A stretch of DNA of 64,000 bases from the human T2T-CHM13v2.0 reference genome, Homo sapiens: NCBI GenBank assembly GCA_009914755.4, contig CP068257.2, forward strand, positions 31,328,001 to 31,392,000, given 5' to 3'. How positions within the stretch are numbered: position 1 is the stretch's first letter; every line of letters starts with the position of its first letter. The translations under genes were made by a program, and so were the position numbers. The notes below the pieces were generated by a model, which saw only the letters and a list, made by a program, of their open reading frames with translations, was not told the origin of the DNA and did not search any database. Positions 4,721 to 64,000 of this stretch are shown here, piece by piece.

Positions 4721-4859
4721 TGGCACAACCCAAATACAACTACTTTAATGTTTCAGTCATCTCTTTCCATTATGTCTCTAACTGCATTTATATTTACAGT
4801 TATAATGTGCATAAAAGTTTGTGATCTACTTTTCTCCTAAACATTGCCCTAGGTTATTA

Positions 4860-5250: not shown

Positions 5251-5273
5251 CACACACACACACACACATACAC
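5251..5273. repeat. (CA)n microsatellite
   Basis: cacacacacacacacacata run. Confidence 0.9.
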
Positions 5274-7488: not shown

Positions 7489-7862
<374 letters not shown>

Positions 7863-8301
7863 ACGATCATCGGCTTTTTGATAAGATCTCAGGAGTTTGG
7901 CAAATGTGCTCAAGCATGAGCACTAAGAAGCAAAATGGTGGAGTTTAACCAGTATATGACCTTCCTCTAGGAACGCTCAACTGGTAAGGGTAAAATGCCT
8001 CAAATGAGCATGCGCACAACTTCAGTAAACTCACTGTGCGTATGGCCCCTCCCAAGTGCTGGCAGCCCACCAAAGCATTTGGATGAAGTGACGTTGTTCA
8101 TCTGAGGTAATACCCAAGGTTCATTGTCTCACGCCAAGGAAATCAAGGACACAAACACACAAGAAGTGAGGTTAAGAACAGAGGTTTAGTAAGCGAAAGA
8201 AAGAGAAGAGCTCTCTCTGCTGCAGAGAGAGGGGTCCCAAATGGGTTTTCTGCTTCCGTGGTGAAATGCAGTGGGGTTTTATAGATGAGCTTGAGGAGGC
8301 G

Positions 8302-8421
8302 GTGTCTGATTTACATAGGGCACGAAAGATTTGTCGGACCACGTGTGTCATTTGCATAAGGCATGAAAAACTGGTTAGGGCTAGGTGTGCCATTTGCATA
8401 AGACACAAAAAACTGGCCACC
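8302..8421. repeat. ~40-bp tandem repeat x3 (gtgtg[tc]catttgcataag[ga]ca[ct]gaaaaactgg...)
   Basis: three diverged head-to-tail copies; the minus-strand ORF 8172-8420 shows the repeated peptide 'CLMQM.H'. Confidence 0.7.
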
Positions 8422-8872
8422 CCACCCTAATCCTTTGTTATGCAGATGGGTTCTCTACCTGGCCGTGCCACATTGCCTGTTTCTTTACTGTACACGTGGT
8501 GATAAAGGAAAGGGAAGATGGGGCCTCCATGTTGAACATACCTGGCCCCCAGGTAGCCCTTTTCTATTGGCACAGCTGCCGGCATTCACCTGTGCAAGCT
8601 TCCAGCTTGCTTATCTATGTCTGCAGCTTGATTTTTCAGGCTGTTCTTTGTTTGAAAGACAATGATTTGGGGGCTGCTTTTTGTTAAAAGGGAAATTCTG
8701 CCGAGGGCTCTGTTGCCCTTACTATCTGCCTGAATAATTTCTTTCTACCTCCTGTATCATGGACAGCCTGCTCCAAGGAAGAATCAGGGGAGAAGAAACA
8801 CAAATCCTGGAATCATGCCAATGCATGAAACCCCAAGTCAAGGGTTGGACAGAGCACTTGGCACTTGGATCT

Positions 8873-9102
8873 TTTTTTTTTTTTGAGACGAAGTCTCGCT
8901 CTGTCGCCCAGGCTGGAGCGCAGTGGCGCAATCTCAGCTCACTGCAAGCTACAGGTGCCCACCACCATGCCCAGCTAATTTTTTGTATTTTTAGTAGAGA
9001 CAGGGTTTCACTGTCTTAGCCAGGATGGTCTCTATCTCCTGACCTCATGATCCGCCTGCCTCAGCCTCCCAAAGTGCTGGGATTACAGCACCGTGCCCGG
9101 CC
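8873..9102 (-). mobile_element. Alu SINE with ~55-bp internal deletion, flanked by TSD
   Basis: poly-T + 'gagacgaagtctcgctctgtcgcccaggctggagcgcagtggcgcaatctcagctcactgcaagct|acaggtgcccaccaccatgcccagctaatttt...'; direct repeat 'ggatcttt' on both flanks. Confidence 0.9.
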
Positions 9103-10944
9103 GGATCTTTTAAGTTGCCCACTTGGCCCTCTTCCAAGTGTACTTTCTTCATTTTGTTCCTGCTCTAAAACTTTTAAATAAACTCTCACACCTGCTCTAA
9201 AACTTGCCTTGGTCTCTTATTCTGCCTTATGTCACTTGGCTGAATTCTCTCCTCCAAGGAGGCAAGAATCGAGTTGCTGTAGGCCCATAGGGATTCACTG
9301 CTGGTAACAATACCAGGAGTGAAGGATTCTAGCTAAAATGACTTAGCAGGATTGTTGCTAAGACTTGGACAATGCAGAGATGAACACAGAACCCCAAAAG
9401 TCAGGGCTCAGTTGAGAAGAGAGTTCAGAGGAGCCTGACTAGAATTTGGTCGAGGAGATAGTCTGTCAGTTCAGAAGACGATGAGGGTCTGCTGTTCTCA
9501 GGCCATCACAGACATCATCTGCAGATGCCCTTTACAGCACTGTGTCTGTTTCCAGGAATTTATGTTGTAAAATGGAACTGAAACTCAGAAAAATAATGGT
9601 TGGAGATTTTCACCACCAAATTTTTCTCCTCTTGTTTGTTGTTCTTTAAAAAATAAGTATATTTTCAGTTCATTAGACTTGAAATGATGGATGAGGAAAA
9701 TTAAACCAAATGTGAAAAATGGGGGACTCAGTCCCCAAAGGGATGTCCAGCTGGTGGCCAGTCCTGGGAAGCTCCTTGTGTCTGAGAGCTATATAAAGAG
9801 AGAAGGAAATAAGGAAAAATGACTCCCCTGCATCCAACTTCATTTTTGTTTCTATTTTGTGACAATAAAATTATCTTTCTGAGGATTCTACAAAAGGAGA
9901 GTATAGTATCCTTGTTTAACCTCAGAAGCGATTCCCTCGGGTCTATTTACACAAACATAGCCTTATTTATTAGGTGTACCCAGCTAACATCTGATGACAA
10001 GCTAGAGGAGGAAGAAATGGATGGATCCAATCTAGAGATATTAACAGATATTTGTATAGAAGGTGGCAATTTATTGATCATTTATACATCATCTTTCTAA
10101 AGCCTCTTTACTCACTCTTTCTCTCTGATATCTGCTTTTCATTTGTACTAGACCACCGATACCACATATCATGTGTCAATTTCTTTACTCAGAAAGAAAA
10201 CATGCATAACAGAAGGTGGGTCAGGCTGGTGGTACAGAATAAGTTTTGCTTGGTGATTTTCATGGCCTGCAAAGATCTGAGTTATGTGGTCCAGTCAGGA
10301 CCCCCAACCAATGCATCCATGGGGATTTAAGTGAATATTAAACTTAAGTGTGTTCTGTTCATGCTGCAATCTCACAGTTTACCTAAGGCCTTGATTTATG
10401 GCACAATAAATGTTGCCGAATTTGAGTAAATAAAGGTATAGTTTGTCTTCTGAAAACACAAGAAGGTAGGCCTGGTACCACAAGAAGGGATAGTTGATAA
10501 TGAGAGACAGGAGTGTAAAATCGAGAAAAAGAAAACTATTCCATAAAACAAAAGTTGGGGATATTCACATAAGAGCAAATATGTTTAGAATTCTAATGAA
10601 AAGTCACCAGGAAAAGTTGAACTTGTGTTTATAAGACTCTGATTAAGAAAGCAGGGACATGTATAAACTTTAAAAAGTATTCTTTACCTAAAATTGTTCA
10701 TTTTAAAACAAACTTTGGTACCATATGAAATAAACGTATTTAGAAATGTAATCAAATACTAAAACGTATTTAGACCCTTTTGCTTTATTACACCAGATAA
10801 TAGTATTCTTTTGGGATTCCTGAAAAGTCCATGTAAATATTCACCCTGACCAAACGGGAGTGGGCTGCCCTATTTAGTGGAACACATTTTTGTAAGTTTT
10901 CTTCTGTAGATAGGCTAGTTGGGAGTGCACTGTTAGAAGCTCCC

Positions 10945-11245
<301 letters not shown>

Positions 11246-11265
11246 AAATAGCTCCCAGTAGCATC

Positions 11266-11318
11266 TTCCCGCCTCCCCCTCTCCCCCCCGCCCCCCACCC
11301 CCACCCCCGCATATATCT
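11266..11318. repeat. C-rich low-complexity tract (G-rich on minus strand)
   Basis: 'cctccccctctcccccccgccccccacccccacccccg' directly after the Alu tail. Confidence 0.85.
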
Positions 11319-12394
11319 GGGCCCCGACTTTGAGGGCATTCACACAAACAGCTCCATAGCAGCTGGTGGGCTGGGCCCAATTAGCCAGTGTGGGGCAAAC
11401 GGAATGCACGATTGATGCAGAACCCTTGGAGAACGGGCCCTGAATCCAGGAGCCAAATGGTTCCTTGCACAGAGCGGAAAGGATTAGGGTGGGCGACCAG
11501 TTTGGGAGCAAGAAGCAGTATCCCACCAACATGCAAAGCCTTTTCTTTCTCTACACAACCCCACCATTGTCTATGACATAATGCTGTTCAGTGGCCTCCA
11601 CTGCAACATTCAAGGCCCAGTCCTGTCTTCTGGGAACAACTCAGATATTAATTTTGAAAGCAGTGGGTGTCCTTCACACGCAGACTCTAAACAGATTCTC
11701 CATTCTACATGTAGAGGAAGAAATCGAGAATAATATTTTGCTTTTAAAAAAAAAATTTGGTGGCTGGTTCTTCTTGCTCTCCAAGAAAGCTTGTTTGGGA
11801 ATATTAAAAAAACGAAGATGTACAGCTCCTCTCCTGGGTGAAAAGCACACAGTCCAAAGAGTCGTATTTGTCAGGCTCACAGGATGGGCGGGAGAGGAGG
11901 TGGGACTGGTGGGCGGTGGCTTTTCACCCTCTGTACCTAGGTTTATGGCCTTTCAGTATTTAGGGGAGCTATTTTTACATGTAGCTTGCTCCTATTTTTT
12001 TCTGATTGGAGTCTCTTTATTAAAAGAATTGTTTAATTTGAAATGAGTAACCCAAGTTACTCGGCAAGATATAAAGATTAAGAAAAGATAACAAGAGATG
12101 AATAAATGAGGTAGTGGAATTGCTTGATAACTGGAGTAGTGCCTTAGAAGCTCTCTCCCAAGTTAGAACTATTCTTTGTTGTTAAATGAAAGTTAAAATA
12201 TGCCATTTTCAATGTAAATACATTTTTTCCCAGATTCATACTATCCTATATTACAATTGTTTTCATTTCTTCATCATAAGAAATCATCACTTTGGAGTTT
12301 TATTTATGTATGTCCTGTTTTCACATCATTTTGACAGTCCTGTAGATATGCTATGTTTTTCCTCACAGCCCTAATTATATATCATCTTTATCAT

Positions 12395-30170: not shown

Positions 30171-30544
<374 letters not shown>

Positions 30545-31539
30545 TTAATTACTTAAGGCAACCCATCTATGTATCTATATCTATAAACATACAGGTAGAA
30601 GTTTCATGCATATGATATCGTATGATATATGTCTATATCCAGCTACCTATCTGTATATATATTTAGCTAGACAGTATGACAAATGTCAAACCTAAGATGA
30701 ATCCACAGCTATTCAAAACAGCAGCCTTGTTTAAAATATGGGAGAAATAAAACCACCCACAAAGTTTAATTAGTGAATTTCCTTACCAGTCCGGCTTCTC
30801 TAGCAAGCAGTAAGTTCAAAATCCCTAACTATTTCCCTGCAATCCTTCATTGCTCACCCAGTGGGGCAGAAGGCAGATCTTGTCCAAGACAGCCATGAAC
30901 ACATTACACGATTCACCGGGAGACTCCTCCAGCACCTTGACCTGCAAATTTCCAAAGGAGCTGCTCCGCTGTCAGCTCTCACCTAGAGGATGCCCCAGGG
31001 GGCAGGGCACAGCACCACATCTTTGCTCTCTGGGGTTCACTTGTCCAGGGCTTGGAGCCTGCAGGGAAAGAGGCTGCGTATCCGGCAAACCCATCTCTCC
31101 CAAACTAGCATTTCAATCCCCCAGCCCTGCATGTCTGCCTCATGACAAAGCTATTCTATGAGCTTATATCTCTCAGGGCACGACTTGGATTTTCAGTTTT
31201 AGAGCCCTGAGTGATGGGTTGTCTCAGTTGGTCCTCAAATCTCTTTCCTTTGTGTGTTTTTTGTTGTTGTGGTGGTTGTTATTTTTTGTTTGTTTATTTT
31301 TGTTTTTGTAGCTCTAGGAAACCTCTATGATTCTACTCTGTCAAAAAGAATCTACAAAGCCCCCTCTCTTCCGTTGGGTAAAATCCAAGGACCCATTGGT
31401 ACCTGATCCATTTTGAGAAACACAAGCCCTGGGGAGATATTTGCCCAGCTGTGGGGAGCCACTCTTTGGAGCAGTTCACTGTTTGTAGGATGGTGAGGAG
31501 AGAGGAAGGGGACAGGGTGAAGTCTTAACTCATGCTCAC

Positions 31540-31880
31540 ATCCAGACAGACTTTTTTAATCGCAAGTAGCATCCATTCAGTTTCTCTAATCAGCTTCAAA
31601 GACCTCGTAAGGCTCCCATTACCATTGTGTGGCTGGTAATTCTGTGTCACAACTAATTACTGCCTAATAGCTGTCACAGATGCAGAGTCTCCAGTTTAAA
31701 AGCCAAGTCGATTTCTTCCTGCATTCAGACCTCGTCTGCCCCTGAGTGGTGCAGATTACATGAGGTAATACGGCAGTTATTTCTACCTGCTGCAGTTCAT
31801 CAGCTCCATCTCCAGCTGAGGTAGCCGCCCGTCCCCCTTGGACAAAGATTATTTGTCATTAAAATGCTCAGGCTCGCTCA
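31540..31880. promoter_or_regulatory. repeat-free block dense in homeodomain (TAAT) and TALE (TGACAG) motifs, CpGs retained: candidate developmental enhancer
   Basis: 'ggctggtaattctgtgtcacaactaattactgcctaatagctgtcacagatgc' (two TAAT cores plus ctgtca/tgtcac MEIS/PBX-like sites); ~8 CpG in 340 bp at ~47% GC (obs/exp ~0.4, by eye, above the ~0.2 genome background). Confidence 0.35.
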
Positions 31881-32184
31881 CACTCTCTTTTTTCAATCTG
31901 GATGTTGCCTACACTTTGAGAAAGGTTTTTGAAGAAAGATTAGCAGGATTAGGAAAGGTTCACATATGTTCAGCCTCACTCTTGGTATTCAAGACATCAC
32001 AACCCTGCACCACCCAGGAAGCACAAGAAAATGGAGCACAGGCAGAGGCCCGGGAGGGGCTGGGGGGTGAGGGGGAAGCTGTGTGGCTCCCCCACCAATA
32101 ATACAAAGCTGGAGTCAAATGCAAATCTGGGGGTGTTTTACGCTGGGGAATTCCCAGGCAGTTTCCTAGAATTTTTTAAATTAA

Positions 32185-33365
32185 TTTTTCTATTTCCATA
32201 GGTTATTGGGGAACAGGTGGTGTTTGGTTACATGAGTAAGTTCTTTAGCGGTGATTTGTGAGATTTTGGTGCACCTGTCACCCGAGCAGTGTACACTGTA
32301 CCCAATTTGTGATATTTTATCCCTCACCCCCTTCCCACCCTTTCCCCTTGAGTCCCCAAAGTCCATTGTGTCATTCTTATGCCTTTGCATCCTCACAGCT
32401 TAGTTCCCACTTATGAGTGAGAACATATGATGTTTGGTTTTTCCATTCCTGAGTTATTTTACTTAGAATAAGAGTCTCCAATCGCATCCAGGTCGCTGCG
32501 AAGGCCATTAATTCATTTCTTTTTATGCCTAACTAGTTTTCCATCATATATGTCACAGTTTCTTTATCCAGTCATTGATTGGTGGGCATTTGGGTTGGTT
32601 CCATGATTTTGCAATTGTGAATTGTGCAGCCATAAACATGCGTGTGCAAGTATCTTTTTTTGTATAATGACTTCTTTTTCTCTGGGTAGATATCCAGTAG
32701 TGGGCTTACTGGGTCAAATGGTAGATCTACTTTTAGTTCTTTAAGAAAACTCCACACTGTTTTCCATAGTGGTTGTACTAGTTTACATTCCCACCAGCAG
32801 TGTAGAAGTGTTCCCTTTTCACCGCATCCACGCCAACATCTATTATTTTTTGTTTTTTTGATTATGGCCATTCTTGCAGGAGTAAGGTAGTGTTGCCTTG
32901 TGGTTTTGATTTGCATTTCCCTGATCCTTACTGATGTTGAGCATTTTTTCATATGTTTGTTGGCCATTTGTATATCTTCTAAGAATTGTCTATTCATGTC
33001 TTTAGCCCACTTTTTGATGGGATTATTTGTTTGTTTGTTTCTTGCTAACATGTTTGAGTTGGTTGTAGATTCTGGATATTAGTCCTTTGTCAGACGTATA
33101 GATTATGAAGATTTTCTCCCACTCTGTGGGTTGTCTGTTTACTCTGCTGACTGTTTTGCTGTGCAAAAGCTCTGTAGTTTAATTAAATCCCAGCTATTTA
33201 TTTTTGTTTTATTGCATTTTCTTTGGGGTTCTTGGTCATGAAATCCTTGCCTAAGCCAATGTCTAGAAGAGTTTTTCCAATGTTATCTTCCAGAATTTTT
33301 AGTTTCAGGTCTTAGATCCATCTTGAGTTGATTTTTGTATAAGGTGAGAGAGGGAACTTTTGTTT
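32185..33365 (-). mobile_element. L1 (primate L1P, e.g. L1PB/older L1PA-like) 3' portion: ORF2 C-terminus + 3' UTR, 5'-truncated, minus orientation
   Basis: colinear with the rc of L1 ('ggttattggggaacaggtggtgtttggttacatgagtaagttctttag.ggtgatttgtgagattttggtgcacc..tcacccgagcagt.tacactg.acccaatttgt'); encodes the ORF2p C-terminal peptide. Confidence 0.95.
32572..33051 (-). pseudogene. L1 ORF2p C-terminal fragment (159 aa open, retroelement-derived, not a host gene)
   Basis: translation '[84 protein letters not shown]...PFDP..PLL.IYP' matches the human L1 ORF2p C-terminus. Confidence 0.9.
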
Positions 33366-33676
33366 TTAGCGCTGTTTTCTTTTCTCTTCCTGTGTGATTA
33401 TTTGTCTCCTTTTGAGAGCCTGACCAGCAAAGGAGAAGGGAGGTGTCAGAGGCAGGACTCAACAACTTGGCCTTGAGGCAGGTTCTAAGAGCCATGCCCC
33501 ACCCAACAGCTGACCCTTGGCAGTCCTTCTGTCTACTTTTTCTTGCCTTAGCTACCTTCTCAAGGGCACCAAATGAAGGAAGGGTCATGGCTCCCAGGTC
33601 CTGTGAGAAAAACCTGTTCCCAAGTTGGAATATTTCATTGAGTTAAACTTCTAACCAATCTGCACTGATCACTGGG

Positions 33677-34049: not shown

Positions 34050-35570
34050 TGAGTACCAAGAAGAATTAAAAAGGGGAAAAGAAATGGCTAGGTAGTCTTA
34101 GAATCTTCCCAAATCTCCCTGTAAAATAGAAAGAGCAACTAGAATAGCAAAGCGAAAAGAGCCATGGACAGTATCCACAACAGAGCTGGTAGTGAGGTAA
34201 TCCTCCCAGACACCAAATACTAACAGGTCTGGGCAAAGCATTTACAGTTCAAGAACTGTGTGGTGGCAGCATTAGTGCCGGAAGAAGACACGTGATAAAA
34301 ACTGTGGTTCTGAAGATACTGAGAGCTTGAGAATCACACAATCACCTGCAGGTATTCACCAGAGGGCACAGCAAGACCATCTGAGTACAGCAACCAAAAC
34401 CAGGAGAGCTATCTGAAAACCCAATGCATGGCTAAGTGCAAGAGGACTGTGATACAATAAGGTCTGATGGTGTCGGGGTGATTTGAGCTCCATATGCCCT
34501 CAAAGTGAACAGAGTCTCTTCCAATACAAAGCCTTGCACTGATGAGTATCTGGGCAGATCAATACAGGCAAGGAAAAAAGATCCAGATAAATGGGATGGG
34601 GGTGGGCAGAGCAGAAGAGGCAGCTCTCAAAACCTTTGGAGATTTTTGTTTTATTTCCTTGCGAAAGGAACAGGAGAGGGAGCTCTAGAGCCTTTGAACT
34701 GGAAAGGTTGCCCCAGCATACCCTTCACTCCTAAAAGTATAGGAAAATTCATTTCATTTAGAAAATAAACAACAGAAAAGCATTGTGGTAAAAACTTATA
34801 AAAAGTTAAGAAGGAAAAAATGAAAAGAAAGAGCAGAAAAAATTCCTACAAAACGATGAAAGCGTGTCCAAAAGGAATGCCCACAAAACATTTCAAATAT
34901 TATGAAACAAGTTAAAGAAAATTAAGAAAATGATAGAAGCTATGAAAGAATAACATACCTCAGAATTAGAAAAAAAGCTCAGAAATAAGGTGACTGGAGA
35001 AAAAAAATGCTTGAAAAGAGGGATGGCACAGTTTAGAAAATAACTAGAAATATAAAAAGAAAGGTCTGGAGAAAGACACTGATGTAAGAAATCATAGAAA
35101 TACAAAGGACAGAAGAGCATGTTAAATGACACTGTGGGACGCAATGAATTCCGGACTGTGGAAAATTCTAAGTCAAATGGCTCCGTTTTTTCAACAACAA
35201 AAATGGAGGGGTTAAAAAGAAAGAAAGAAGAGGAAATGTATAAAGAAAAGAGATTTATAAGTCATTTCAAGCAAATGCAAAGTAGGAATCTTATTTCAGT
35301 TCTGGTTCAAACAATCAATTTTTTAAAATATAAAGCAACCAGGAAAATATAAACATGACAATATTTAATAATATTAAGGGATTAATATTTTTAAGTATAA
35401 TAAAAATATTGTGATTTTTTAAAAATAATGATTATCTATTAGAGATGCATACTGAAACGTTTATAAATAACAGTACTTAATGTCTGGGCTCACTACAAAT
35501 TATCCAGGAACAGTGGGAACAGAGGCAGATATAGAAGAACAAGATTATCCTGTATTGATATATATCAAAG
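34050..35570 (+). mobile_element. A/G-rich ancient LINE-like (L1M 5'/ORF1-region-like) sequence, low confidence
   Basis: long AAG/GAA-rich stretch with L1-ORF1-like phrases ('aaatacaaaggacagaagagcatgttaaatgacactgtgggacgcaatgaattccggactgtggaaaattctaagtc'); no intact ORF. Confidence 0.35.
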
Positions 35571-36455
35571 CTGATTGATGAGTACTTGATTGTTCTTTGT
35601 ATTATACTCTCTACTTTTGACTGTCTGAATATTACTGTAATTCAAAGCTTAATGAACAAACAAATAATAAGGGAAGTCTTAGAGCTTGGCATCCACCAGG
35701 AAGGAATACCTTTTGCTTCTTTCCTGAGAGGGCTGTGCTACCTGGAGAGGGTTTCAATAGATGCAGACATACATTGTAACCCATCCCCTTCAGCCCTTCT
35801 TCCCATTCAAGTGTTCCAGTATATTTGTCCCTAAACTGAACTAGATGTGTTACTCTGTCACTTGCTAGAATATAAGATCTATGAAGGCAAGAATTTGTCA
35901 ATTGTGTTACCATTGTATCCCCAGGACCCAGAATAGTGCCTGGCACGTAATAGGCCTTCTGTAAATATTTGCTGTTTAATTGAGTGAATCGTCATGACTG
36001 ATCCCAGGACATAATCCCAGGCTGTAACTACCACTGTGTGTTTTTTCTTGGAGAGAAGAGGGAGAATTCTTTACTTTGTAGACCTAAGCTTGGGTTACCT
36101 GCAGAAGTGGCCTCTAAAATGTGAGATAAACAATGTCTGACCTTGTAGCAATGGAGAACTTCAGGCAGCTGCTGAGCTGCTGAAGGTCCACAGAGTGTGA
36201 AAGGACTGAGCAATGTGACTAATGATTGCTTCCCTTTGCAAAGTATCCAGTATCCAGTATTCAGCCAATAAGCCTTACATTAGATGTAGTGTTAAATATG
36301 TTGGTAATTGATGGGAATAAATAAATGTAAATTTTATATATTATTTGTTTACATACGTGATATTACAAAATATATATTTGGCCTTCCTCCCTGTTTCCTG
36401 GCATACAACACTTAACGTCAACATCCTTGGACTCTTCAAAGTGGTGTGTCTTATT

Positions 36456-38176: not shown

Positions 38177-38889
38177 GCCTTGTCCTGTGCCTCTCTTCAT
38201 CTATATCCTTTGTAATTCTTTTGTAATGTCCTTTAGAATAAACCAGTAAAGTAAGTGTTTCCCTGAGTTCTGTGAGCCACTCTAGCAAATTAATCAAATT
38301 CAAGGAAGGGTTTTGGGAACCCCCAATTTACAGCCAATTGTCAGAGGCACAAGTAAACAACTTGAGGCTTGGAATTGTCATTGGAAGTGGGGAGCAGTCA
38401 TGTGGGGCTGAATGCTCAATCTGTAGGATCTGATACTATTTCCAGGCAGATAGTATCAGAATTGAACTGAGTTCCAGGATGACACTCAGCTGATATCTGC
38501 AACAGAATTGATTGCTTGCTTCATGTGTGGGGAGATACTCCCACATATTTGGTTACAGAGAGACCAGAAGAAAAAGTTTATTTTTCTCTACAGAACGTCA
38601 TTATTTGGTTGGTTGGTTTGCTTCATCAATGAGGATGCTTAAAAACTAAGTGTAGCCCTTGCACCATTTTAGTTGAGAAAGAGTATGTTACAACGGAAAA
38701 TGTAAAATTTTTCAAAATAGACAGACTTTAGTTCAAATCCTGGCCCTGAAAGTTAGCTGTTAATGTTGTAGAATGTTTATTAATCATTTTGTGCTCCAAT
38801 TTTCTTAATAATAAAATAGGACTGTTAATATTCTCTACAGACTAATATCCCTCCTGAATATAGACATAAAAATTTAAATTCAATAATAT

Positions 38890-55965: not shown

Positions 55966-56754
55966 AAGGATAGCTCTGGAAGTTGCCCATGCCACTTCTG
56001 TTTACTTCCTACTGGCCAGAACTTGGTCACAAAAGAGGCTGGGAAATGTAAGGAGTCTGGGATATGTAGTTTTAATTCCAGGTGGCCACATGCCAAACCA
56101 AAAAGCCTATTTCTACATAGAAAGTGGAACAGATTTGGAGGAACAATCAGCGATGTTTGCCATGCCGCCATATGACCAGGAAACCCTTGTGTTAATCACA
56201 TGCACTCTAACCACCTCTCAGGGCTGTGGAGGGAATCAAAGAAATTGTAATAATTGTGATCACAATTACTTCGAGCATAAAGTTTGAGAGCAGAGATGCT
56301 GCAGGACCTCAGCACCTATGACAGTTCATGGCACAGGAAAGGAGCTCAATAAACATCGATTGAATTATTTACTTAAAACATAAATATTCCTCAGCAGATA
56401 TAATGCATTGACGCACCTGGGCTGCTTTGCTCAACTCCTTGGAAAAGTCGCTGGTAAATCTTTGGAAGGATTGGAAATGGTTCCAGATGTTGAAATCATT
56501 TGTAATTTGTAGCATTGATGTTTTGAGGAGGGAAGTGACACTTTATTATTCTCCCCTGTAGCGCCACCGTGGTCAGTCTCGTCACCTATTCTGACATCCA
56601 AATTAGAAATCATCTTTTCCCTGGACTCAGGAAAATAAAAGTTGAGCATTTAAATTAGCCATCAGGCAGTCTCTCTTATACACTGCAACATAAATGGGGA
56701 CAACAACGGTTAAGTGACAATTTGGTAACATCTACCAAAATTACAATGCACAGA

Positions 56755-56895
56755 TTATGTGGCCCAGTAATGCTAATTCCAGGGATTTATCCTTATGATA
56801 TACTACATATTTACACCTGTGCAAATGAAAATTTGCCAGGTATTTCATGGGAGCATTGTTTGTAATACTAAAAAGCTGGACAGGCCACTAGCTGT
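56755..56895 (+). mobile_element. L1 (L1M) 3'-region fragment
   Basis: 'cccagtaatgctaattccagggatttatccttatgatatactacatatttacacctgtgcaaatgaaaatttgccaggtatttcatgggagcattgtttgtaatactaaaaagctggacaggccac' parallels L1 'cccagcaattccactcctaggtatatacccaagagaaatgaaaacatatgtccacacaaagacttgtacacgaatgttcatagcagcattattcacaatagccaaaaggtggaaacaaccc'. Confidence 0.5.
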
Positions 56896-56927
56896 CAATT
56901 AAACCTATAATGTGTTGGGATTCCAGC

Positions 56928-57110
56928 TAGCTGGGAGATGAGAATGGAATGAGAGGGACATGCTCTCTCTCTTGAAGGATGCCAAGAATGAAGAGAGAAG
57001 GACCCTGGGTCCCTGACACTATGGGTGCCAGACCTGCTGGGAACAAATGCTCTGGTCTCTTAGATGAGAGAACAAACCCTTCTGCTTTGTTAAACCTATG
57101 TTTATTATTG
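56928..57110. repeat. copy B of the inverted duplicated segment (partner 55700-55965)
   Basis: see copy A; ~85-90% identity over ~45 bp direct + ~100 bp inverted. Confidence 0.7.
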
Positions 57111-57891
57111 ACAGCAAGTGGCCCATCGAAAGACATTATGGCATGCCCATATTACAAAAGGATGGAAATATTTTTAAGGAAGAAACTTTTAACAGACAGC
57201 TACAAAGCCATCTCCAAGACACTAACTGGATAAAAGCAAGATGGAGAACAGTGTGCATAGTATGTTACCATTTGTATAAAAAGGGGAACAGAGTGTATAT
57301 GTTTACATTTGCTTCTATTTGCATAGAATACCTCTGGAAGGACAGACAAAAGAGTAACTGAGCAAGAGAACTGGGTGGCTGGGGGAACAAGTGTAGTAAA
57401 CAAACTTTGCATTATATGTTTTTGAATTTTGAACTATGTAAATATATCACATATTCAAAAATAATCAAACAAAAAATAATAGCTCATTAGCTTCATCTAG
57501 TGGTCTTATATATATTCTTTAAAATATGTCTGTCTAGATCCCTCTGATTGATTGCCCTACAAATAGGAGAGAAGAAATACTACTGTTTTTGCAATTACAG
57601 TAGGAAAAAGTGGACCCATCTGTACATTTCAGGCAGTGCCTAAAAGTACTGGGGCCAGCTTAGAGAAGTTTATTCAGTGCAGGAAGCACCCTGATCTCCC
57701 ATCATCTGGGGCACAGACTGTCCTAGCTTCTCTGTGACTGAGGCAAGAAAAAAAAAAAAGCACCATAAAGAGCCAGGTAGCTTTTTTTGAGGTTGGGGGG
57801 GTGGGGCAGTGGGAAGGTCCTAGTTTTGATTGGGCAAATAATTTTTCCTGCACCTGTGACCAATCTGGTGAGGATGTTTGAGAAACAATTC

Positions 57892-58180
57892 TTTTTTTTG
57901 GAGACAGTCTCACTCTGTCACCCAGGCTAGAGTGAAGTGACATGACCTCGGCTCATTGCAACCTCTGCCTCTTGGGTTCAAGCGATTCTCCTGCTCCAGC
58001 CTCCTGGGTAGCTGAGATTATAGGCTCCCACCACCACGCCCGGCTAATTTTTGTATTTTTAGTAGAGACAGGGTTTCACCATGTTGGCCAGGCTGGTCTT
58101 GAACTCCTGACCTCAGGTGATTCGCCTGCCTCGGCCTCCCAAAGTGCTGGGATTACAGGCGTGAGCCACCGCACCCTGCC
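57892..58180 (-). mobile_element. Alu SINE, full length, minus orientation
   Basis: 'ttttttttggagacagtctcactctgtcacccaggctagagtgaagtgacatgacctcggctcattgcaacctctgcctcttgggttcaagcgattctcctgc...ggattacaggcgtgagccaccgcaccctgcc'. Confidence 0.95.
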
Positions 58181-58574
58181 CTGAGGAAAAAATGTATTCT
58201 ATGTATTCTAAATATGGGCTGCAGGTATGTGTGTGTGTGTTTGTAGGTTTAGAAAGAGAGCATTCTCTATTCAGTGGAGAGAGCAAGGTACAGAAACAAC
58301 AGTGGACAGAGCATGCCACCATTTGTGTGAAAAAAGAAGAGAAAGAGAGATCTTTAAATATACTTTGTACTTGTGAAGAATATTTATAGAATACACAAGA
58401 AACTGTAACAGTAGTTGCCTCTGGGGGTCTGGGGGAAGGAGATCAGTTGTACCAGGGAGACTTACTTTTAATCAAATAACCTGTCTACTATTGGAGTTTT
58501 ACTTCAGGTACGTGCTGCACAGCAGCTATTCAAGACATGTTTTAAAGAGAAGGGAATTTCAGTTTATATGATGT

Positions 58575-58675
58575 CCTTCCATCCCCTCCTTCTTTCCTTC
58601 CTCCCTTCCTTTCCTTCCTTCCTTCCTGCCTTCCTTCCTTCCTTCCACTCTCCCTCCGTCCCTCAACCCCCCTTT
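58575..58675 (-). repeat. (TTCC)n microsatellite (GGAA on the minus strand)
   Basis: 'ccttccatcccctccttctttccttcctcccttcctttccttccttccttcctgccttccttccttccttccactctccctccgtccc'. Confidence 0.9.
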
Positions 58676-59799
58676 CTTTTTTATTTCTTTCTTAGTGCAA
58701 ACTGTAAACACCGCCTAAACAGAATGGCCTCTTTGCTTAGACAAATGCCTTCGATTCAACCTAGAAGCAGATGACCTTTTGTTGTTGTTGTTGTTGGAAG
58801 TGGGGAAAGAAAAAAGGAATCAATGTCTAAAACTCCCACACTTTGCAAAGTCACAGAACCCAAGTTCTGCCTGGTCACAACTGCAGTCAAGGAATGTCTT
58901 GCTCCCACCTTAAAGTCATTCTTCCTGGAGCCAACGAAGTCACTTAAAGACCAGTGGGCTCAGCTTTCCACACACACCTGCCTCTTCTTTGGGCAAAGTG
59001 GGAACCAATTCTTCCCTCTGTATCTGCAGGGAAAGACTCTGCAAAGGAGAGCGAGCTCTGGGCGCAGAGCGCCAAAGGGCCCAGGAGGAGAGCACGCCTT
59101 CCGTTCTTGTCAGGAGGGGGCCCTGACCCCAGGGTCTTCCCAGCACAACCATCCACACAGTGGAAACAGATTTCAGGGGGTCCAGCTCTGGCCAGTTTTT
59201 CAGGGCTGAACGAGCCCTGGGCAAAGGAGAGGAAGAGGCAAAGGAGAGGAAGGTCTAAAAGGGATTGAATGGTGCAGCCCTACACTGTTAAAGGGGATTG
59301 GGTGGATCTTGTTTTTATATGGGAAGACATCTAAGAGGTGCTGAGAAATGAAATAAAGCAGGTTACAAAGTTTGTATACAACCAGGCTGGAAGGGCATTC
59401 ATCAAAATCTTGACAGTGGTTTGCTGGGAGGGGCAGAGGTGTTGAAATGGTAATGGTGACGTTTGCTTTCTGTATCATTTCAAAGTTTTGGTTTGTTTTT
59501 GTTTATAATGCACATGCATGTTTTTAACAGCATGCTTACTGAATGTTATTTCACAGGTGGTCAAGGGGTTTGAAGGCACGACTATTCATATGATTTGGGA
59601 GAGGTTGCTGAATCTCCAGGAGATACCCTTGTGAGCTTCAGACTGGGGTCTGTGTCTGGGACTGGAAGACCCCAGGACATTGGAGAGAGGAGCAAAGCCT
59701 AGAGCATGAGCCCCAGAAGACGCCACTGTGCCGGTGCACCACCTGGGGACTTTGGCTTATGTGGATTCTGTTTCAGTAGATCTGGGTGGGATCGAGATC

Positions 59800-60650
59800 T
59801 TTTATTTCCAACCAACACCCACGTCCCAGGACCTCACTGGAAAGAGGCGGGCGGGCGCGGGGAGCCTTCCTGAGGTTCCTGGTTCTCAAGAGCCGGGTGT
59901 AAGGAAGGAAAATCAAAGATTGAATTTAGATGTATGTATTGGAGGGGAATATTGGAGGAAGGGGGAGCAGGGGAGCACGCCCAGCCTCCTCTCCTGTCTT
60001 TCCCGCCCCCTTGTCTAAACTCAAAACCGAGTCCGGGCGCGCCTTGCAGGGCGCCCGAGCTCTGCAGCGGCGTTGCGGGCTGAACCCATCCGGCACAAAC
60101 TGCGGGCCACTGGCCCCTCACACCTGGGAGTTTGCGGCGCTGGCCTGCAGCCCGGGGCCCACGTGGCGGAAGCTTTCCCGGGCGCGCGCTGCGCAGCCCC
60201 GCGGGGCCGGGGAGACACCGCTCGGGAGTCCTCCGCTCGGCTGCAGAATCTTTATCAGCTGCACTTTACCGCAGCCCTGGCTAGGACGCTAGGCGGTGGA
60301 GCGCCCTATCCAGGTGCGCCGCCGCACCATGGATCACCGCGCCCGGTCCCGCAGTCCCGCCATGGCCTGGGGAGGCCCGAAGCCCGGGGACAGTGGCCGG
60401 CCCATCTCCGGCTCCGCGGACCCCCGGCTCAGGCGGGAGGGCAGGCGGGTCCCTGCAGGCCCCCAGGGAGCCCGGGAGCCTCTCTCTGGCGTCATTCAGT
60501 CCCGGGGCAACCTGAAGCGCGGTAGATATTGGAGAGGGGGCGTCTGTTGGGGGGACCTGGCGTCATTACTGATGGCTAGCAGGGAGGAGGGAACGGGTTG
60601 TCACCTCGGCCTCATAAGGCCGTGAGTGAGTAGTCCAGGGCCTCTTCAGG
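59800..60650 (+). promoter_or_regulatory. CpG island 1: candidate promoter/first exon (gene not identified)
   Basis: abrupt rise to ~70% GC with dense CpG ('gggcgcgccttgcagggcgcccgagctctgcagcggcgttgcgggc', 'cccgggcgcgcgctgcgcagccccgcggggccgggg'); ATG in strong Kozak context 'gccgcaccATGg' at 60329; ORF terminates in 'aaggcc|GTGAGTgagtag' (GT at 60622-60623), a consensus-like 5' splice site. Confidence 0.6.
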
Positions 60651-61679
60651 CATTTTTGAAACTGGATTAACTAGGGGGGAAATTGTAGCACTGAAGCCAC
60701 CGTGACTGTCTTTTGCGCTGTGTGGAAACTCCGGTAAAACTCTTTGGGCAACAGTCTTATCACCAGCTCTTCAACGTGTGCAGCCCTTCTGGTCCTGTCC
60801 CTGTTCTGGGCCCCAGGAATGCAAAGCAGGTCCAGGCACTGTGAAGACCCTGGCGGTGGAGGAAGAGGCTTCCCGGCTGTGGAGGAAGCCAGACCCTTAC
60901 AACACAAGACGAGAACCAGACCTGCGTGGGGGAGCTCTGGATGCTACAGGGGCTCAAGGAGGGGTGGAGGGGCCTTCCCAGGCCAACCCCTGAACGGCTT
61001 GGACAAGATGCTCAGATGGACGGGAGGAACGGCGTGTGGGATGGGGGAGCTGGAGGCGGGTGGGTGGGGGGGGGAGGATGGGGAAAGCGCTGGCCCACCC
61101 AGTGTGGGAGGGGTAGAGGAAAAGCCCGCAGGGGCCAGGTTGGGACCCCGTAGGCCGGGTTAGAGGGCTTGGACTTGATCCTGACAGGCGACAGGGAGAC
61201 ATATTGCTACTTATTATGTGCACAGTGGCCAGATCTCTAAAGAAAACACCATCCCCCACCCCCACCCCCCATATAGTAAACCAGGTGGTCCGCCCAGTGC
61301 TCCCAGGGAGGTGATGGGAAATCCCACTCCATACCCTGCGGTGAGGGGTTCCATGCCCTCCACGTGTGCAACTACTCCGGGCCCAGGGAAACACTGGGCC
61401 CCATCCGGTAACCCCCGGCCCAGTCGGGTTTCCCAGTTCACATTATAACCAAACGGTCTTGCCAGCTAGACAGACAGACACCCCTGACCTGTTTACCCTG
61501 ATCCTCTGCTCTCAGGATTAATCACAACTTGTCGAAGGGGGTGGCTTCCAGTGGGGTGGACCGCTCTGTCAATGCCAGCGTGTGTCTAGCATCTCCTGGG
61601 GTGGGGGTGTGGGGAAGGGAGGTGTAGGATGAAGCCCTAGAAGCCTCAGGCAATTGTGATCCGGTGGGCTGGATACTGA

Positions 61680-61830
61680 AGCCCACCCCTGCCTTGACCT
61701 CAATTTTCAGTATCTTCATCTGTAAAATGGGAACAACCTGCCTTCCTCCTAGCCCTAAAGGGGCTGCTGTCAAGATTGGCTGAGATAGCTGTTTGCAAGC
61801 TGAGCTCAATGAAAGTTCATTGTGTCCCCC
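61680..61830 (+). mobile_element. MIR core fragment
   Basis: 'cttgacctcaattttcagtatcttcatctgtaaaatgggaacaacctgccttcctcctagccctaaaggggctgctgtcaagattggctgagatagctgtttgcaagctgagctcaatgaaagttcattg' (MIR 'cctcagtttcctcatctgtaaaatgggg...' core). Confidence 0.45.
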
Positions 61831-62739
61831 TCAGTCCTATCCCAATATCGTCTCACTGCAAAGGTGGGGGGCAGCTTAACTTCAAGGGCACTTCAAGGAT
61901 AGCCAGGTGGCTGTCAGCCCAGCTTTCCAGGATGGGAGCAGGATCTTGACAGAAGGGTTGACTGGGAGGGGCAGTTGCTGGTTTGGGCTTCGTTAGGTTG
62001 CATTTTTGTTTGTTGTCCTTTCATTTCCCTGGGGCAGCACCCCTTCCTGCAAGCTCCAGGCCTTCCTCTGGAATGCTCCTAGAGCCCAACCTCTGCTGGT
62101 GCCTGAGCTTAAGCCAGGCCAGCTAAGGGGATCCTGGATTCACACGGCCTCACAGTCACTCAGATTGTTAGCAGAAGACAAAAATTACAAGGGGAGGGCG
62201 TCATGTGATTCTTACACACCCTCCAAATCCAGCAGACACCTTGGAAGCCACAGGTAGCTTCAAGAAACCCATTTTACGGATGAGAACCTGAGATGGAGAA
62301 AGGACAACTGGAGATCTCTGAGTCTCTGAGCCCACACTCCCTACCTCCCTGCACCTCCAGGCACTCTGCTGGCAGGATCTTGGGCAAATGCCCACAGCTC
62401 TCTGAGAGTCAGTTTTCCTGTCTGTAAAATGGGAGTCATACCTTCCTCCTATGGCCGGTGAGAGACTAAATTAAACTATGTCTGTCAAGACACCTGAAAC
62501 TCCTGGCACAATTTAGGTTGCCTTCAAGTGGTCACAGTTGTCATTAGGTGGAAGTCAACACCCCAATCATTGTAAAGGTGCCCATATACCCCAAGATCCA
62601 GATTACAGCTCTCACAGTTTATTATATACAGCGAAAAAACACATAACACACCTTTGCCCACATTTACATGTATTTTACGGACCATGTTTCACATCAGTCC
62701 GCATGCACATCTGCACGTGTGTGCATTCGGCAGTATTTA

Positions 62740-64000
62740 CCAAGCACCTGCCAAGTGCCAGGGCCTGTCCTCCGCACCCGGCGTGAACTGTCCTGGACCA
62801 GTCCCGGGAGCCGCGGTTCTGACCAGCCGTGCTGACCCTGGACGACTCCATGAGCTGTTTTGTGAGAAAGACACGCCATTTGTTTGCAGAGTTCTGACTT
62901 CTGAGGGGTCATGTAGCACATGTTTGGTAGCCAAACGCTGTCATTCACGACCAGGAGCGATGGCTGCAATGCCTTTTTCTTTGCTTTGCTTTCCGGTGCC
63001 GGGAGCCTTGCCTCCCGCCGCCACCCCTGGTCAGCTCTGCGCAAGAACGTCGTTCTGTTTGGCAGCCAGGCCGAGACGCAGCCTGAATGTGAGCAGGAAC
63101 TCGGAGAAGGGAAGGGAGAGAATCAGAAAGAAGGCCCGGGAGGGACCCGGGAAGCAGTGGGAGGTCTGCGCCCTGGAGCCCCGCGAGAGCCCGCCGGTTT
63201 GGCACGGGCTCCTCCCGGGCCGCCCGGCGGTCCAACAAAGGCCGGCCCCGACACGCACCCGGTCTTTTGTGGGAGAGAAACACAAAGAAGAGGGAAAAAC
63301 ACGGAGGAGGCCAACAGCACCAGGACGCGGGGGCCAACCAGGAACTCCCGGAGCCGGGGCCCATTAGCCTCTGCAAATGAGCACTCCATTCCCCAGGAAG
63401 GGGCCCCAGCTGCGCGCGCTGGTGGGAACCGCAGTGCCTGGGACCCGCCCAGGTCGCCCACCCCGGGCGCCGGGCGCAGGACCCGGACAAGTCCTGGGGA
63501 CGCCTCCAGGACGCACCAGGGCAAGCTTGGGCACCGGGATCTAATTTCTAGTTATTCCTGGGACGGGGTGGGGAGGCATAGGAGACACACCGAGAGGTAC
63601 TCAGCATCCGATTGGCACCAGGGCCAAGGGAGCCCAGGGGCGACACAGACCTCCCCGACCTCCCAAGCTACTCCGGCGACGGGAGGATGTTGAGGGAAGC
63701 CTGCCAGGTGAAGAAGGGGCCAGCAGCAGCACAGAGCTTCCGACTTTGCCTTCCAGGCTCTAGACTCGCGCCATGCCAAGACGGGCCCCTCGACTTTCAC
63801 CCCTGACTCCCAACTCCAGCCACTGGACCGAGCGCGCAAAGAACCTGAGACCGCTTGCTCTCACCGCCGCAAGTCGGTCGCAGGACAGACACCAGTGGGC
63901 AGCAACAAAAAAAGAAACCGGGTTCCGGGACACGTGCCGGCGGCTGGACTAACCTCAGCGGCTGCAACCAAGGAGCGCGCACGTTGCGCCTGCTGGTGTT
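62740..64000. promoter_or_regulatory. CpG island 2 (runs off the window edge): probable promoter/5' UTR region of an unidentified gene
   Basis: >70% GC, CpG every few bp ('ccgggagccgcggttctgaccagccgtgctgaccctggacgactcc', 'gcgcgcgctggtgggaaccgcagtgcctgggacccgcccaggtcgcccaccccgggcgccgggcgcaggacccgg', 'ctagactcgcgccatgccaagacgggcccctcgac...ccggcggctggactaacctcagcggctgcaaccaaggagcgcgcacgttgcgcctgc'); stop-poor in all frames, giving artefactual 130-260-aa ORFs on both strands. Confidence 0.7.

What the first reader, a model, noticed from the sequence alone, without database searches (positions are those of the whole stretch)
31500..31900. Second repeat-free element packed with homeodomain/TALE-type motifs: candidate developmental enhancer
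Between an Alu/simple-repeat region and an L1 lies ~350 bp of unique sequence containing 'ggtaattctgtgtcacaactaattactgcctaatagctgtcacagatgc'. That is two TAAT homeodomain cores interleaved with TGACA(G)/TGTCAC sites typical of MEIS/PBX/PKNOX TALE factors, plus 'cattaccattgtgtgg'. CpGs are preserved (atcgcaag, cctcgtaagg, agtcgattt, cctcgtctgcc, aatacggcag, gccgcccgtcc). This motif grammar resembles HOX-PBX-MEIS-responsive enhancers near developmental regulator genes. Together with the large terminal CpG islands it hints that the unidentified gene is a developmentally regulated locus.
Basis: partly seen in the sequence, partly recalled or inferred. Interest (0 to 1): 0.5.

Follow-up and report, generated by a model that had tools for sequence, protein, structure and literature searches.

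The report
Known OLIG2 upstream enhancer, human copy
The flagged stretch is a real, strongly conserved non-coding element about 35 kb upstream of the human OLIG2 gene, and by position it matches an enhancer already studied in mouse, so the finding is correct in outline but not new.

Summary
All quoted strings are present. The window is the 64 kb directly upstream of OLIG2: a tarsier OLIG2 locus aligns colinearly with window 56.5-64 kb.

The flagged box lies inside a conserved non-coding element (CNE) at about 31555-32030. I recovered orthologous contigs from a ruminant, two other mammals and one more distant species. Identity to human is 83-91% in the CNE, against about 70% in alignable flanks. 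In the distant species only the CNE aligns.

It ends in an invariant GLI-like site, CACCACCCA.

Position (about -34 to -35 kb) and rank as the best-conserved block match the mouse Olig2 -33 kb enhancer (OLE / O2e33 / GBS2 / EC2). That enhancer binds Gli, Sox2, Nkx2.2 and Sox10. Deleting it lowers Olig2 and blurs the neural tube progenitor-domain (p3/pMN) boundary.

"Developmental enhancer at a developmental locus" is therefore supported. The HOX-PBX-MEIS grammar is not:
- The TGACAG site and the CAGATG E-box exist only in the human sequence, created by six clustered substitutions.
- No TGATNNAT site exists.

I could not obtain mouse sequence, so orthology rests on synteny and distance. Novelty: already known.

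The parts
31555..32030 (.). Conserved non-coding element (CNE), the core of the finding
   Evidence: 83-91% identity between human and each of four non-primate lineages. It is the only part of the region that aligns in the most distant species, L006/L007. Conservation ends sharply at 32030.
31297..32183 (.). Wider orthologous block shared with eutherian mammals
   Evidence: 79% identity over about 926 aligned columns with ruminant L001 and with L004. It is the best block in about 20 kb of colinear synteny, where the rest is about 66-77%.
31905..32029 (.).
   Evidence: 72-92% of columns are identical in all five species per 25-bp bin. There is a 107-bp perfect run between human and L004 starting at 31894.
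31635..31670 (.).
   Evidence: TAAT at 31637, TAATTA at 31654 and TAAT at 31665 are each kept in 3 of 4 other species; the TAAT core at 31654 is kept in all four. There is a 30-bp perfect run with L006 starting at 31631.
31672..31685 (.). Human-lineage substitution patch that creates CTGTCA (MEIS-type) and CAGATG (E-box)
   Evidence: Six of the 12 strictly human-specific substitutions in the CNE fall in these 14 bp. All six are transitions and two are CpG decays. Post hoc clustering P is about 0.003, computed on the looser set of 21 changes. Neither motif is present in any other species.
31595..31628 (.). Two SOX-type sites (TTCAAAG at 31595-31601, CATTGT at 31623-31628)
   Evidence: Kept in 3 of 4 other species.
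31842..31856 (.). Inverted SOX half-sites ACAAAG-ATTA-TTTGT (SoxE-dimer-like)
   Evidence: Invariant in all six aligned sequences. Reading it as a SoxE dimer site is my inference.
31937..31951 (-). Pair of TAATCY (K50 homeodomain-type) sites
   Evidence: Both are invariant in all species. No bound factor is known.
31957..31968 (.). GGTTCA half-site followed by a CATATG E-box
   Evidence: Invariant in all species. CATATG is a bHLH-type site. The assignment is an inference.
32008..32016 (+). GLI-like site CACCACCCA (8 of 9 matches to GACCACCCA)
   Evidence: Invariant in all species, at the 3' edge of the CNE. The matching mouse element is a Gli1/Gli3 ChIP site. By my arithmetic such a 9-mer with one mismatch is expected about 14 times in 64 kb by chance, so the motif alone proves nothing.
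32184..33354 (-). L1 fragment inserted on the human lineage, splitting the orthologous conserved interval
   Evidence: Absent from L001, L004 and L005, whose alignments jump from about 32180 to about 33354. The L1 identity is recognised by eye and from memory, not tested against a repeat library.
31240..31310 (.). T/G-rich simple sequence bounding the block on the left
   Evidence: Read directly from the sequence. It falls below the Tandem Repeats Finder threshold.
56547..64000 (+). OLIG2 proximal upstream region with two CpG islands. It anchors the locus.
   Evidence: Colinear with tarsier L008 1-7058. The tarsier OLIG2 exon-1 match is at L008 9068-9152 and the coding sequence starts at 10001.

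Best explanation
The element is the human copy of the distal Olig2 enhancer that lies about 33 kb upstream of mouse Olig2. That enhancer has been published under the names OLE, O2e33, GBS2 and EC2, and as region 8 of Chen et al. 2008.

It is a cis-regulatory module that does not encode anything. It works by collecting transcription factors on a block of about 480 bp, within a conserved interval of about 2.7 kb.
- Activators: Gli activators downstream of Sonic hedgehog, SoxB1 (Sox2) and later SoxE (Sox10).
- Repressors: homeodomain and paired-type factors of neighbouring progenitor domains (Nkx2.2, Pax6) and the Gli3 repressor. These bind the same module and shut it off.

The net output sets the level and timing of OLIG2 transcription. 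This happens in ventral neural tube (pMN) progenitors, in cortical progenitors at the switch from making neurons to making glia, and in part of the oligodendrocyte lineage.

**Shown here:** the locus, the distance from the gene, strong constraint, non-coding character, and conserved GLI-like, SOX-like and TAAT-type motifs.

**Taken from the mouse literature:** factor occupancy and deletion phenotypes.

**Inferred:** that the human block is the orthologue, and that the conserved motifs are the sites actually used.
For: **Locus.** OLIG2 protein recalled from memory hits proteins named OLIG2. The upstream flank of the tarsier OLIG2 locus aligns colinearly with window 56547-64000. The tarsier match to OLIG2 exon 1 lies about 2.0 kb beyond the point corresponding to the window end. 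That puts the CNE at about -34 to -35 kb.

**Constraint.** Orthologous contigs were recovered through spurious ORFs in public protein sets and by an exact-pattern scan.
- Human versus ruminant is 89.5% identical and human versus L004 is 90.9% in the CNE, against about 70% in the flanks.
- In the most distant species only 31558-32031 aligns.

**Non-coding character.**
- No ORF.
- No 3-base periodicity of substitutions, P = 0.41, with 1-2-nt indels.
- No Rfam family.
- No compensatory base-pair changes.

**Motifs.** The GLI-like site, the SOX sites and the TAATTA/TAAT sites are conserved.

**Literature.**
- Chen 2008 (PMC2596485) lists a region at -33 kb with the highest multi-species identity in the 150 kb upstream of Olig2.
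- Fan 2022 equates it with EC2, the element of Oosterveen and of Weider.
- Weider 2015 describes a 2.7-kb OLE at -33 kb that is Sox10-bound, conserved in human, dog and chicken, and active in pMN and oligodendrocytes.
- Exelby 2021 reports that O2e33 binds Gli, Sox2 and Nkx2.2. Its deletion reduces Olig2 and blurs the p3/pMN boundary.
- Liang 2024 maps GBS2 to chr16:91191215-91194007. It is a Gli3 site needed for cortical gliogenesis, and its human homologue contacts OLIG promoters.

**Scaling check.** Enhancer 5F7 lies at -17 kb in mouse and -16 to -18 kb in human. Mouse -33 kb therefore predicts human -35 to -37 kb. The CNE is the only strongly conserved block in the 21-43 kb of the window covered by orthologues.
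Against: - No mouse sequence could be obtained, so orthology to the mouse element rests on synteny, distance and conservation rank, not on an alignment.
- Mouse guide RNAs and primers, which lie in the non-conserved edges, match none of my loci.
- I cannot say whether the CNE corresponds to sub-fragment OLEa or OLEb. My coordinate arithmetic puts it near their boundary.
- No human chromatin or binding data are available here.
- In an oligodendrocyte cell line, CRISPRi of the mouse element did not change Olig2, and human oligodendrocyte Hi-C showed no contact with OLIG2. Activity is therefore context-limited.
- The GLI-like 9-mer is not statistically remarkable on its own.
Confidence: 0.85

Rival explanations
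1. A HOX-PBX-MEIS (TALE) responsive enhancer. HOX and PBX would bind the TAAT cores, MEIS/PKNOX would bind TGACAG, and the three would act cooperatively.
For: TAAT cores are enriched and partly conserved. Conserved TGTCA half-sites lie at 31645 and 31854.
Against: - The only full MEIS site (31671-31676) is found in the human sequence alone and arose by CpG decay.
- There is no TGATNNAT PBX-HOX site in the box.
- Published binders of the matching mouse element are Gli, Sox2, Sox10, Nkx2.2 and Pax6.
Confidence: 0.05
2. Mainly a silencer or Polycomb-associated repressive element that keeps OLIG2 off outside its expression domain, rather than an activating enhancer.
For: - Chen 2008 suspected a repressive element here and noted differential methylation between ES cells and neural precursors.
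- Liang 2024 found H3K27me3 at GBS2 that falls when Shh signalling rises, plus Gli3 binding at GBS2; Pax6 repressor binding was reported at other sites in the same locus.
- Nkx2.2 repressor binds the mouse element.
Against: - Deleting the mouse element lowers Olig2 rather than raising it.
- OLE drives reporter expression in pMN and oligodendrocytes.
- The two roles are not exclusive. Repressor input is part of the best explanation.
Confidence: 0.12
3. An exon, promoter or structured domain of an unannotated non-coding RNA upstream of OLIG2.
For: The conserved block has sharp boundaries. A conserved TTTAAAAG and an AG-ended pyrimidine tract (..CACCACCCAG|G) can be read as a TATA-like or an acceptor-like signal, from the sequence alone.
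Against: - No Rfam family reaches threshold in the whole window.
- No compensatory pair changes occur, and the few substitutions break the predicted pairs.
- The candidate GT donor at 31820 is not conserved.
- Conservation lies on the wrong side of the acceptor-like site.
Confidence: 0.04
4. A chance cluster of short motifs in neutrally evolving unique DNA, or an old decayed transposon.
For: Short motifs such as TAAT are common, and the motif statistic is post hoc.
Against: - 83-91% identity across mammals, against about 70% in flanks, and the sole alignable piece in the most distant species.
- No second copy in the window or in any fetched locus.
Confidence: 0.01

Closest known systems
Mouse Olig2 -33 kb enhancer (OLE of Weider 2015; O2e33 of Exelby 2021; GBS2 of Liang 2024; EC2 of Fan 2022; region 8 of Chen 2008; CRM of Oosterveen 2012 and Peterson 2012)
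   Same: - Same gene, same side and same orientation.
- Nearly the same distance: -33 kb in mouse, about -34 to -35 kb in human.
- The best conserved block of its neighbourhood.
- Conserved GLI-like, SOX and homeodomain-type motifs that fit the published binders.
   Different: - The human interval is split by an L1 insertion at 32184-33354.
- It carries a human-lineage patch of six substitutions at 31672-31685.
- Sequence-level orthology to mouse was not tested here.
Enhancer 5F7 of Friedli 2010 (mouse -17 kb; human hg18 chr21:33,301,930-33,304,097)
   Same: A conserved CNS enhancer upstream of OLIG2, in the same window, active in the neural tube.
   Different: It is a different element. By coordinate arithmetic it should fall at about window 47.8-50.9 kb, some 17 kb closer to the gene.
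Shh/Gli-responsive neural tube cis-regulatory modules (Gli + SoxB1 + homeodomain repressor sites)
   Same: The motif make-up of the CNE fits this class. The mouse counterpart is cited as a member.
   Different: Membership is a functional definition resting on ChIP and reporter assays. Only motifs could be checked here.
HOX-PBX-MEIS composite enhancers (for example the Hoxb1/Hoxb2 autoregulatory elements; recalled from memory)
   Same: TAAT-rich, with TGACA-type half-sites nearby.
   Different: No bipartite PBX-HOX site is present, and the full MEIS site is not conserved.

Membership tests
Orthologue of the mouse Olig2 -33 kb enhancer (OLE/O2e33/GBS2) | Lies upstream of OLIG2, in synteny, at a distance comparable to mouse -33 kb | tested here: met
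   Tarsier OLIG2 flank is colinear with window 56547-64000. The TSS lies about 2.0 kb beyond the window end on the tarsier scale, so the CNE is at about -34 to -35 kb. The 5F7 enhancer gives a mouse:human distance ratio of about 1.05-1.1.
Orthologue of the mouse Olig2 -33 kb enhancer (OLE/O2e33/GBS2) | Is the most conserved non-coding block of its neighbourhood | tested here: met
   It is the best block in about 20 kb of synteny and the only block alignable in the most distant species. Chen 2008 reports the highest identity in the 150 kb upstream of Olig2 for the mouse region.
Orthologue of the mouse Olig2 -33 kb enhancer (OLE/O2e33/GBS2) | Direct sequence alignment to mm10 chr16:91,191,215-91,194,570 | not testable with these tools
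   No mouse genomic sequence was reachable. Published mouse guides and primers lie in non-conserved edges and match nothing. The third protein search failed. Sequence strings from the CNE were not found in any held paper.
Orthologue of the mouse Olig2 -33 kb enhancer (OLE/O2e33/GBS2) | Occupancy by Gli, Sox2/Sox10 and Nkx2.2; reporter activity in pMN or oligodendrocyte lineage; loss of Olig2 on deletion | not testable with these tools
   Known for mouse only. Liang 2024 reports that the human homologue of GBS2 contacts OLIG promoters in fetal cortex.
Shh/Gli + SoxB1 + homeodomain neural tube CRM | Conserved Gli-type, Sox-type and homeodomain-type motifs within one module | tested here: met
   CACCACCCA at 32008-32016 is invariant. 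The SOX sites at 31595 and 31623 are kept in 3 of 4 other species and the one at 31842 is invariant. TAATTA at 31654 and the TAAT sites at 31587, 31637 and 31665 are each kept in 3 of 4. This is motif-level evidence only.
HOX-PBX-MEIS composite enhancer | Bipartite PBX-HOX site TGATNNAT | tested here: not met
   Zero matches on either strand in 31500-31900 or in the 49-mer. None in the aligned CNE.
HOX-PBX-MEIS composite enhancer | Conserved MEIS/PKNOX site TGACAG near the HOX site | tested here: not met
   The single TGACAG (31671-31676, minus strand) is absent from all four other lineages.
Ultraconserved element in the strict sense (at least 200 bp identical in human, mouse and rat) | A perfect run of 200 bp or more | tested here: not met
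   The longest perfect run is 107 bp (human-L004) or 56 bp (human-ruminant). Reading the list of invariant columns, the longest run identical in all five species is about 22 bp. Chen 2008 reports a 45-bp human-mouse-rat run in the mouse region.
Protein-coding exon | Open frame and 3-base periodicity of substitutions | tested here: not met
   No ORF spans the element. Variable columns by codon phase are 62/51/56, P = 0.41, and indels of 1-2 nt occur.
Structured RNA family | Rfam match or compensatory base-pair changes | tested here: not met
   0 Rfam hits at the gathering threshold in the window. 0 of 35 predicted pairs show compensatory change.

The most novel reading that the evidence does not exclude
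The deeply conserved enhancer carries a patch specific to the human lineage (whether human-only or shared by all primates is unknown). Six transitions within 14 bp (31672-31685) turned an ancestral GCCGTCGTGGGTGCAAAG into GCTGTCACAGATGCAGAG. This destroyed two CpGs and created a MEIS/TGIF-type TGACAG site next to a CAGATG E-box, directly beside the conserved TAATTA/TAAT sites. If these new sites are bound, for example by a bHLH factor or a TALE factor, the human OLIG2 -35 kb enhancer would have gained an input that other mammals lack. That could alter OLIG2 timing or level in human neural or glial progenitors.
Probability: 0.07. Interest if true: 0.55.

Novelty: already known. Interest (0 to 1): 0.22.

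Why it matters
OLIG2 is a master regulator of motor neuron and oligodendrocyte fate. It lies on chromosome 21 and is relevant to Down syndrome, glioma and myelin disease (the Down syndrome and glioma links are from general knowledge).

The -33 kb enhancer is one of the best understood inputs to OLIG2. In mouse it converts the Sonic hedgehog gradient and cross-repressing homeodomain factors into a sharp OLIG2 domain. Its loss reduces Olig2, motor neuron output and cortical gliogenesis.

Recognising the human copy in raw sequence shows that the first-stage reader can pick out a real developmental enhancer. It adds no new biology, however.

The only point that is new here is the human-lineage substitution patch inside the enhancer. 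It would need primate alignments and functional tests before any claim could be made.

Tried and rejected
- **Exact scans with the human 23-mer.** Scans of metagenome and viral contigs with a 23-mer spanning the TAATTA...CTGTCA core found nothing. In hindsight that string contains the human-only patch.
- **Scans with conserved strings.** Two conserved strings scanned against prokaryotic genome contigs and viral contigs found nothing.
- **Third protein search.** A 999-residue concatenation of all six frames returned nothing and did not even recover the three earlier hits. The candidate list was probably swamped. This search was wasted.
- **Mouse oligos.** Guide RNAs, a repair oligo and primers from Exelby 2021 and Liang 2024 were compared with every locus to find a mouse contig or a sequence link. 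There was no meaningful match.
- **Literature by sequence.** A full-text search for six strings from the CNE gave no paper. Peterson 2012 is not held. No supplement is held for Fan 2022.
- **L006 as mouse.** I tested this by comparing its perfect-run lengths with Table 1 of Chen 2008. They do not match, so I rejected it.
- **Enhancer 5F7.** I considered that the element might be Friedli's 5F7. Its human coordinates place it about 17 kb closer to OLIG2, so I rejected this.
- **Olig2-E1.** I considered Olig2-E1 of Fan 2022. By my recalled position of mouse Olig2 it lies about 80 kb downstream of the gene, so I rejected it.
- **Other readings.** Coding exon, structured RNA and repeat copy were all tested and rejected.
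- **First recall.** My first free recall of the neighbouring gene was LMX1A. I discarded it. The OLIG2 lead was accepted only after the tarsier locus alignment.
Full report
**1. Observation**

The 49-mer is at 31635-31683, cattaccattgtgtgg is at 31617, and the six CpG contexts lie between 31559 and 31834.

The surroundings are roughly as described.
- An Alu lies at 30175-30459.
- A T/G-rich simple stretch lies at about 31240-31310.
- Sequence I recognise as L1 (by eye, from memory) starts near 32184. The 32184-33354 stretch is missing from all non-primate orthologues.

CpG observed/expected is 0.39 in the box, against 0.20 for the window outside its CpG islands. That is the top 9% or so of 400-bp windows.

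The 49-mer is the only place in 64 kb with four TAAT hits and two TGACA hits in 49 bp. There is no TGATNNAT site. These statistics are post hoc and modest on their own.

**2. What the sequence is not**

- No ORF spans the element.
- No Rfam family reaches threshold anywhere in the window.
- There is no tandem repeat.
- There is no second copy in the window.

**3. Finding orthologues**

The available collections are mostly prokaryotic, so direct exact-match scans with a human 23-mer found nothing.

I then concatenated stop-free translations of the region and searched the large protein collection. Three spurious ORFs turned up, called on host DNA in metagenome or sequencing-run assemblies. Their contigs are colinear with the window over up to 20 kb.
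- One set (L001-L003) is from a ruminant, judged from many hits to a Bov-tA SINE consensus that I wrote from memory.
- L004 and L005 are two other non-primate mammals.

An exact scan of metagenome contigs with an invariant 25-mer added L006/L007. These are one more distant species, in which only window 31558-32031 aligns, at 82% over 488 bp, and the flanks do not.

**4. Conservation**

Window 31297-32183 is the best block in the syntenic region, at 79% against about 66-77% elsewhere.

Within it, a sharply bounded element at 31555-32030 shows these identities to human:

| Species | Identity to human |
|---|---|
| L004 | 90.9% |
| Ruminant (L001) | 89.5% |
| L005 | 83.0% |
| L006 | 82.8% |

The most conserved part is 31905-32029, where 72-92% of columns are identical in all five species. 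It contains a 107-bp perfect run between human and L004.

Substitutions show no 3-base periodicity (P = 0.41) and indels of 1-2 nt occur. A consensus fold of the core has no compensatory pair among 35 predicted pairs. The element is therefore a constrained, non-coding, non-structured DNA element, that is, a cis-regulatory element.

**5. Locus**

Reading the terminal CpG island, I recalled that the sequence might continue into OLIG2. I treated this as a lead only.
- The recalled OLIG2 protein hits proteins named OLIG2 across vertebrates.
- The tarsier OLIG2 locus (L008) aligns colinearly, same strand, from its position 1-7058 to window 56547-64000.
- In L008 the recalled OLIG2 exon 1 matches at 9068-9152 and the coding sequence starts at 10001.

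The window is therefore the 64 kb directly upstream of OLIG2 and ends about 2 kb before the transcription start on the tarsier scale. The element sits at about -34 to -35 kb.

**6. Comparison with what is known**

The mouse literature describes one element under several names.
- **Chen 2008** lists, among ten candidate regions in the 150 kb upstream of Olig2, one at mm8 chr16:91,080,626-91,082,625. That is -33 kb. It has the highest multi-species identity (83.7%) and a 45-bp run identical in human, mouse and rat.
- **Fan 2022** states that this region overlaps their EC2, the element of Oosterveen 2012 and Weider 2015.
- **Weider 2015** describes it as a 2.7-kb conserved region (OLE) at about -33 kb. 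It is bound and activated by Sox10, aligned with human, dog and chicken, and active in the pMN domain and in oligodendrocytes.
- **Exelby 2021** calls it O2e33. It binds Gli proteins, Sox2 and Nkx2.2. Its deletion (chr16:91192464-91193458 or 91191295-94570) lowers and delays Olig2, reduces motor neurons and blurs the p3/pMN boundary.
- **Liang 2024** calls it GBS2 (chr16:91191215-91194007). It is a Gli3-bound site required for Olig2 in cortical progenitors and for gliogenesis, and its human homologue contacts the OLIG promoters in fetal cortex.

A second enhancer calibrates the scale. Friedli's 5F7 lies at -17 kb in mouse and at -16 to -18 kb in human. Mouse -33 kb therefore predicts human -35 to -37 kb.

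The element at -34 to -35 kb is the only strongly conserved block in the 21-43 kb of the window covered by my orthologues. I conclude that it is the core of the human orthologue of this enhancer.

This conclusion rests on synteny, distance and conservation rank. I could not obtain mouse sequence. Published mouse guides and primers lie in non-conserved edges and match nothing.

**7. Motifs and mechanism**

I scored each motif for retention in the alignment.

| Status | Motif and position |
|---|---|
| Conserved | TAATTA at 31654 |
| Conserved | TAAT at 31587, 31637, 31665 |
| Conserved | SOX-type sites at 31595 and 31623 |
| Conserved, invariant | Inverted SOX pair ACAAAG-ATTA-TTTGT at 31842-31856 |
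| Conserved | Two TAATCY sites at 31937-31951 |
| Conserved | GGTTCA followed by CATATG at 31957-31968 |
| Conserved, invariant | GLI-like CACCACCCA at 32008-32016, at the edge of the element |
| Not conserved | The only full MEIS site, CTGTCA at 31671 |
| Not conserved | The CAGATG E-box at 31677 |

The conserved set fits the published inputs: Gli, SoxB1/SoxE and homeodomain repressors. It does not fit a HOX-PBX-MEIS grammar.

The most likely mechanism is integration of an activator and a repressor input.
- Sonic hedgehog-dependent Gli activators cooperate with Sox2, and later Sox10, to switch the module on.
- Nkx2.2, Pax6-type factors and the Gli3 repressor switch it off in neighbouring domains.

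The GLI-like 9-mer would occur about 14 times by chance in 64 kb by my arithmetic. The motif assignments are therefore inferences that fit the mouse ChIP data, not proof.

**8. A small new observation**

Of the 12 substitutions strictly specific to the human sequence in the element, six fall within 14 bp at 31672-31685. The post hoc clustering P is about 0.003, computed on the looser set of 21 human-derived changes. All six are transitions and two are CpG decays.

I have no other primate sequence, so I cannot say whether the patch is human-only.

**9. Verdict**

- Right: a developmental enhancer at a developmental locus.
- Wrong: the factor grammar.
- Missed: the box excludes the most conserved core.

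The element is already known and functionally dissected in mouse, and its human homologue has been noted in the literature. Interest is therefore low. The one open point is the human-lineage patch.

Noticed in passing
window 56547-64000 (CpG islands at about 60000-61200 and 62700-64000): These are the CpG islands of the OLIG2 proximal upstream region. They align colinearly with the tarsier OLIG2 flank, and the window ends about 2 kb before the OLIG2 transcription start on the tarsier scale.
   Followed up: yes
window about 47800-50900: By coordinate arithmetic from Friedli 2010 (human 5F7, hg18 chr21:33,301,930-33,304,097), the known neural tube and diencephalon enhancer 5F7 should lie here. 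Window 48700-49500 is unique sequence rich in homeodomain- and SOX-like motifs, and a MIR lies at 49802-50024. No orthologue covered this part, so this is unverified.
   Followed up: partly
window 31672-31685: A cluster of six transitions specific to the human sequence lies inside the conserved enhancer. It destroys two ancestral CpGs and creates a TGACAG site and a CAGATG E-box (post hoc P about 0.003). Whether the patch is human-only or primate-wide is unknown.
   Followed up: partly
window 32184-33354: An L1 fragment is absent from ruminant, L004 and L005. It splits the orthologous conserved interval. Alignment resumes at 33354-33670 at about 70-73%.
   Followed up: partly
window 19260-19355; L006 7-102: A 96-bp stretch aligns at 78% with the most distant species, about 12 kb upstream of the element. 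It is the only other piece of the window that aligns in that species, so it may be another small conserved element.
   Followed up: no
window 34266-36352 and 38613-39256: These are long stretches alignable with ruminant (2.1 kb at 70%) and with L004 (0.65 kb at 75%), downstream of the element. They are more continuous than the neighbouring sequence. Their significance is unknown.
   Followed up: no
P0001-P0003; loci L001-L005: Public protein collections contain spurious 'proteins' called on mammalian host DNA in metagenome and sequencing-run assemblies. Two of the three do not translate with the standard code: TGA appears to be read as W. They are useful as handles for fetching vertebrate orthologues, but they are annotation artefacts.
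   Followed up: partly
window about 6500-11500: By distance scaling, the human counterpart of mouse e14415 (Chen region 7, mouse -52 kb, a Pax6-bound enhancer in Liang 2024) might fall in this part of the window. Not examined.
   Followed up: no
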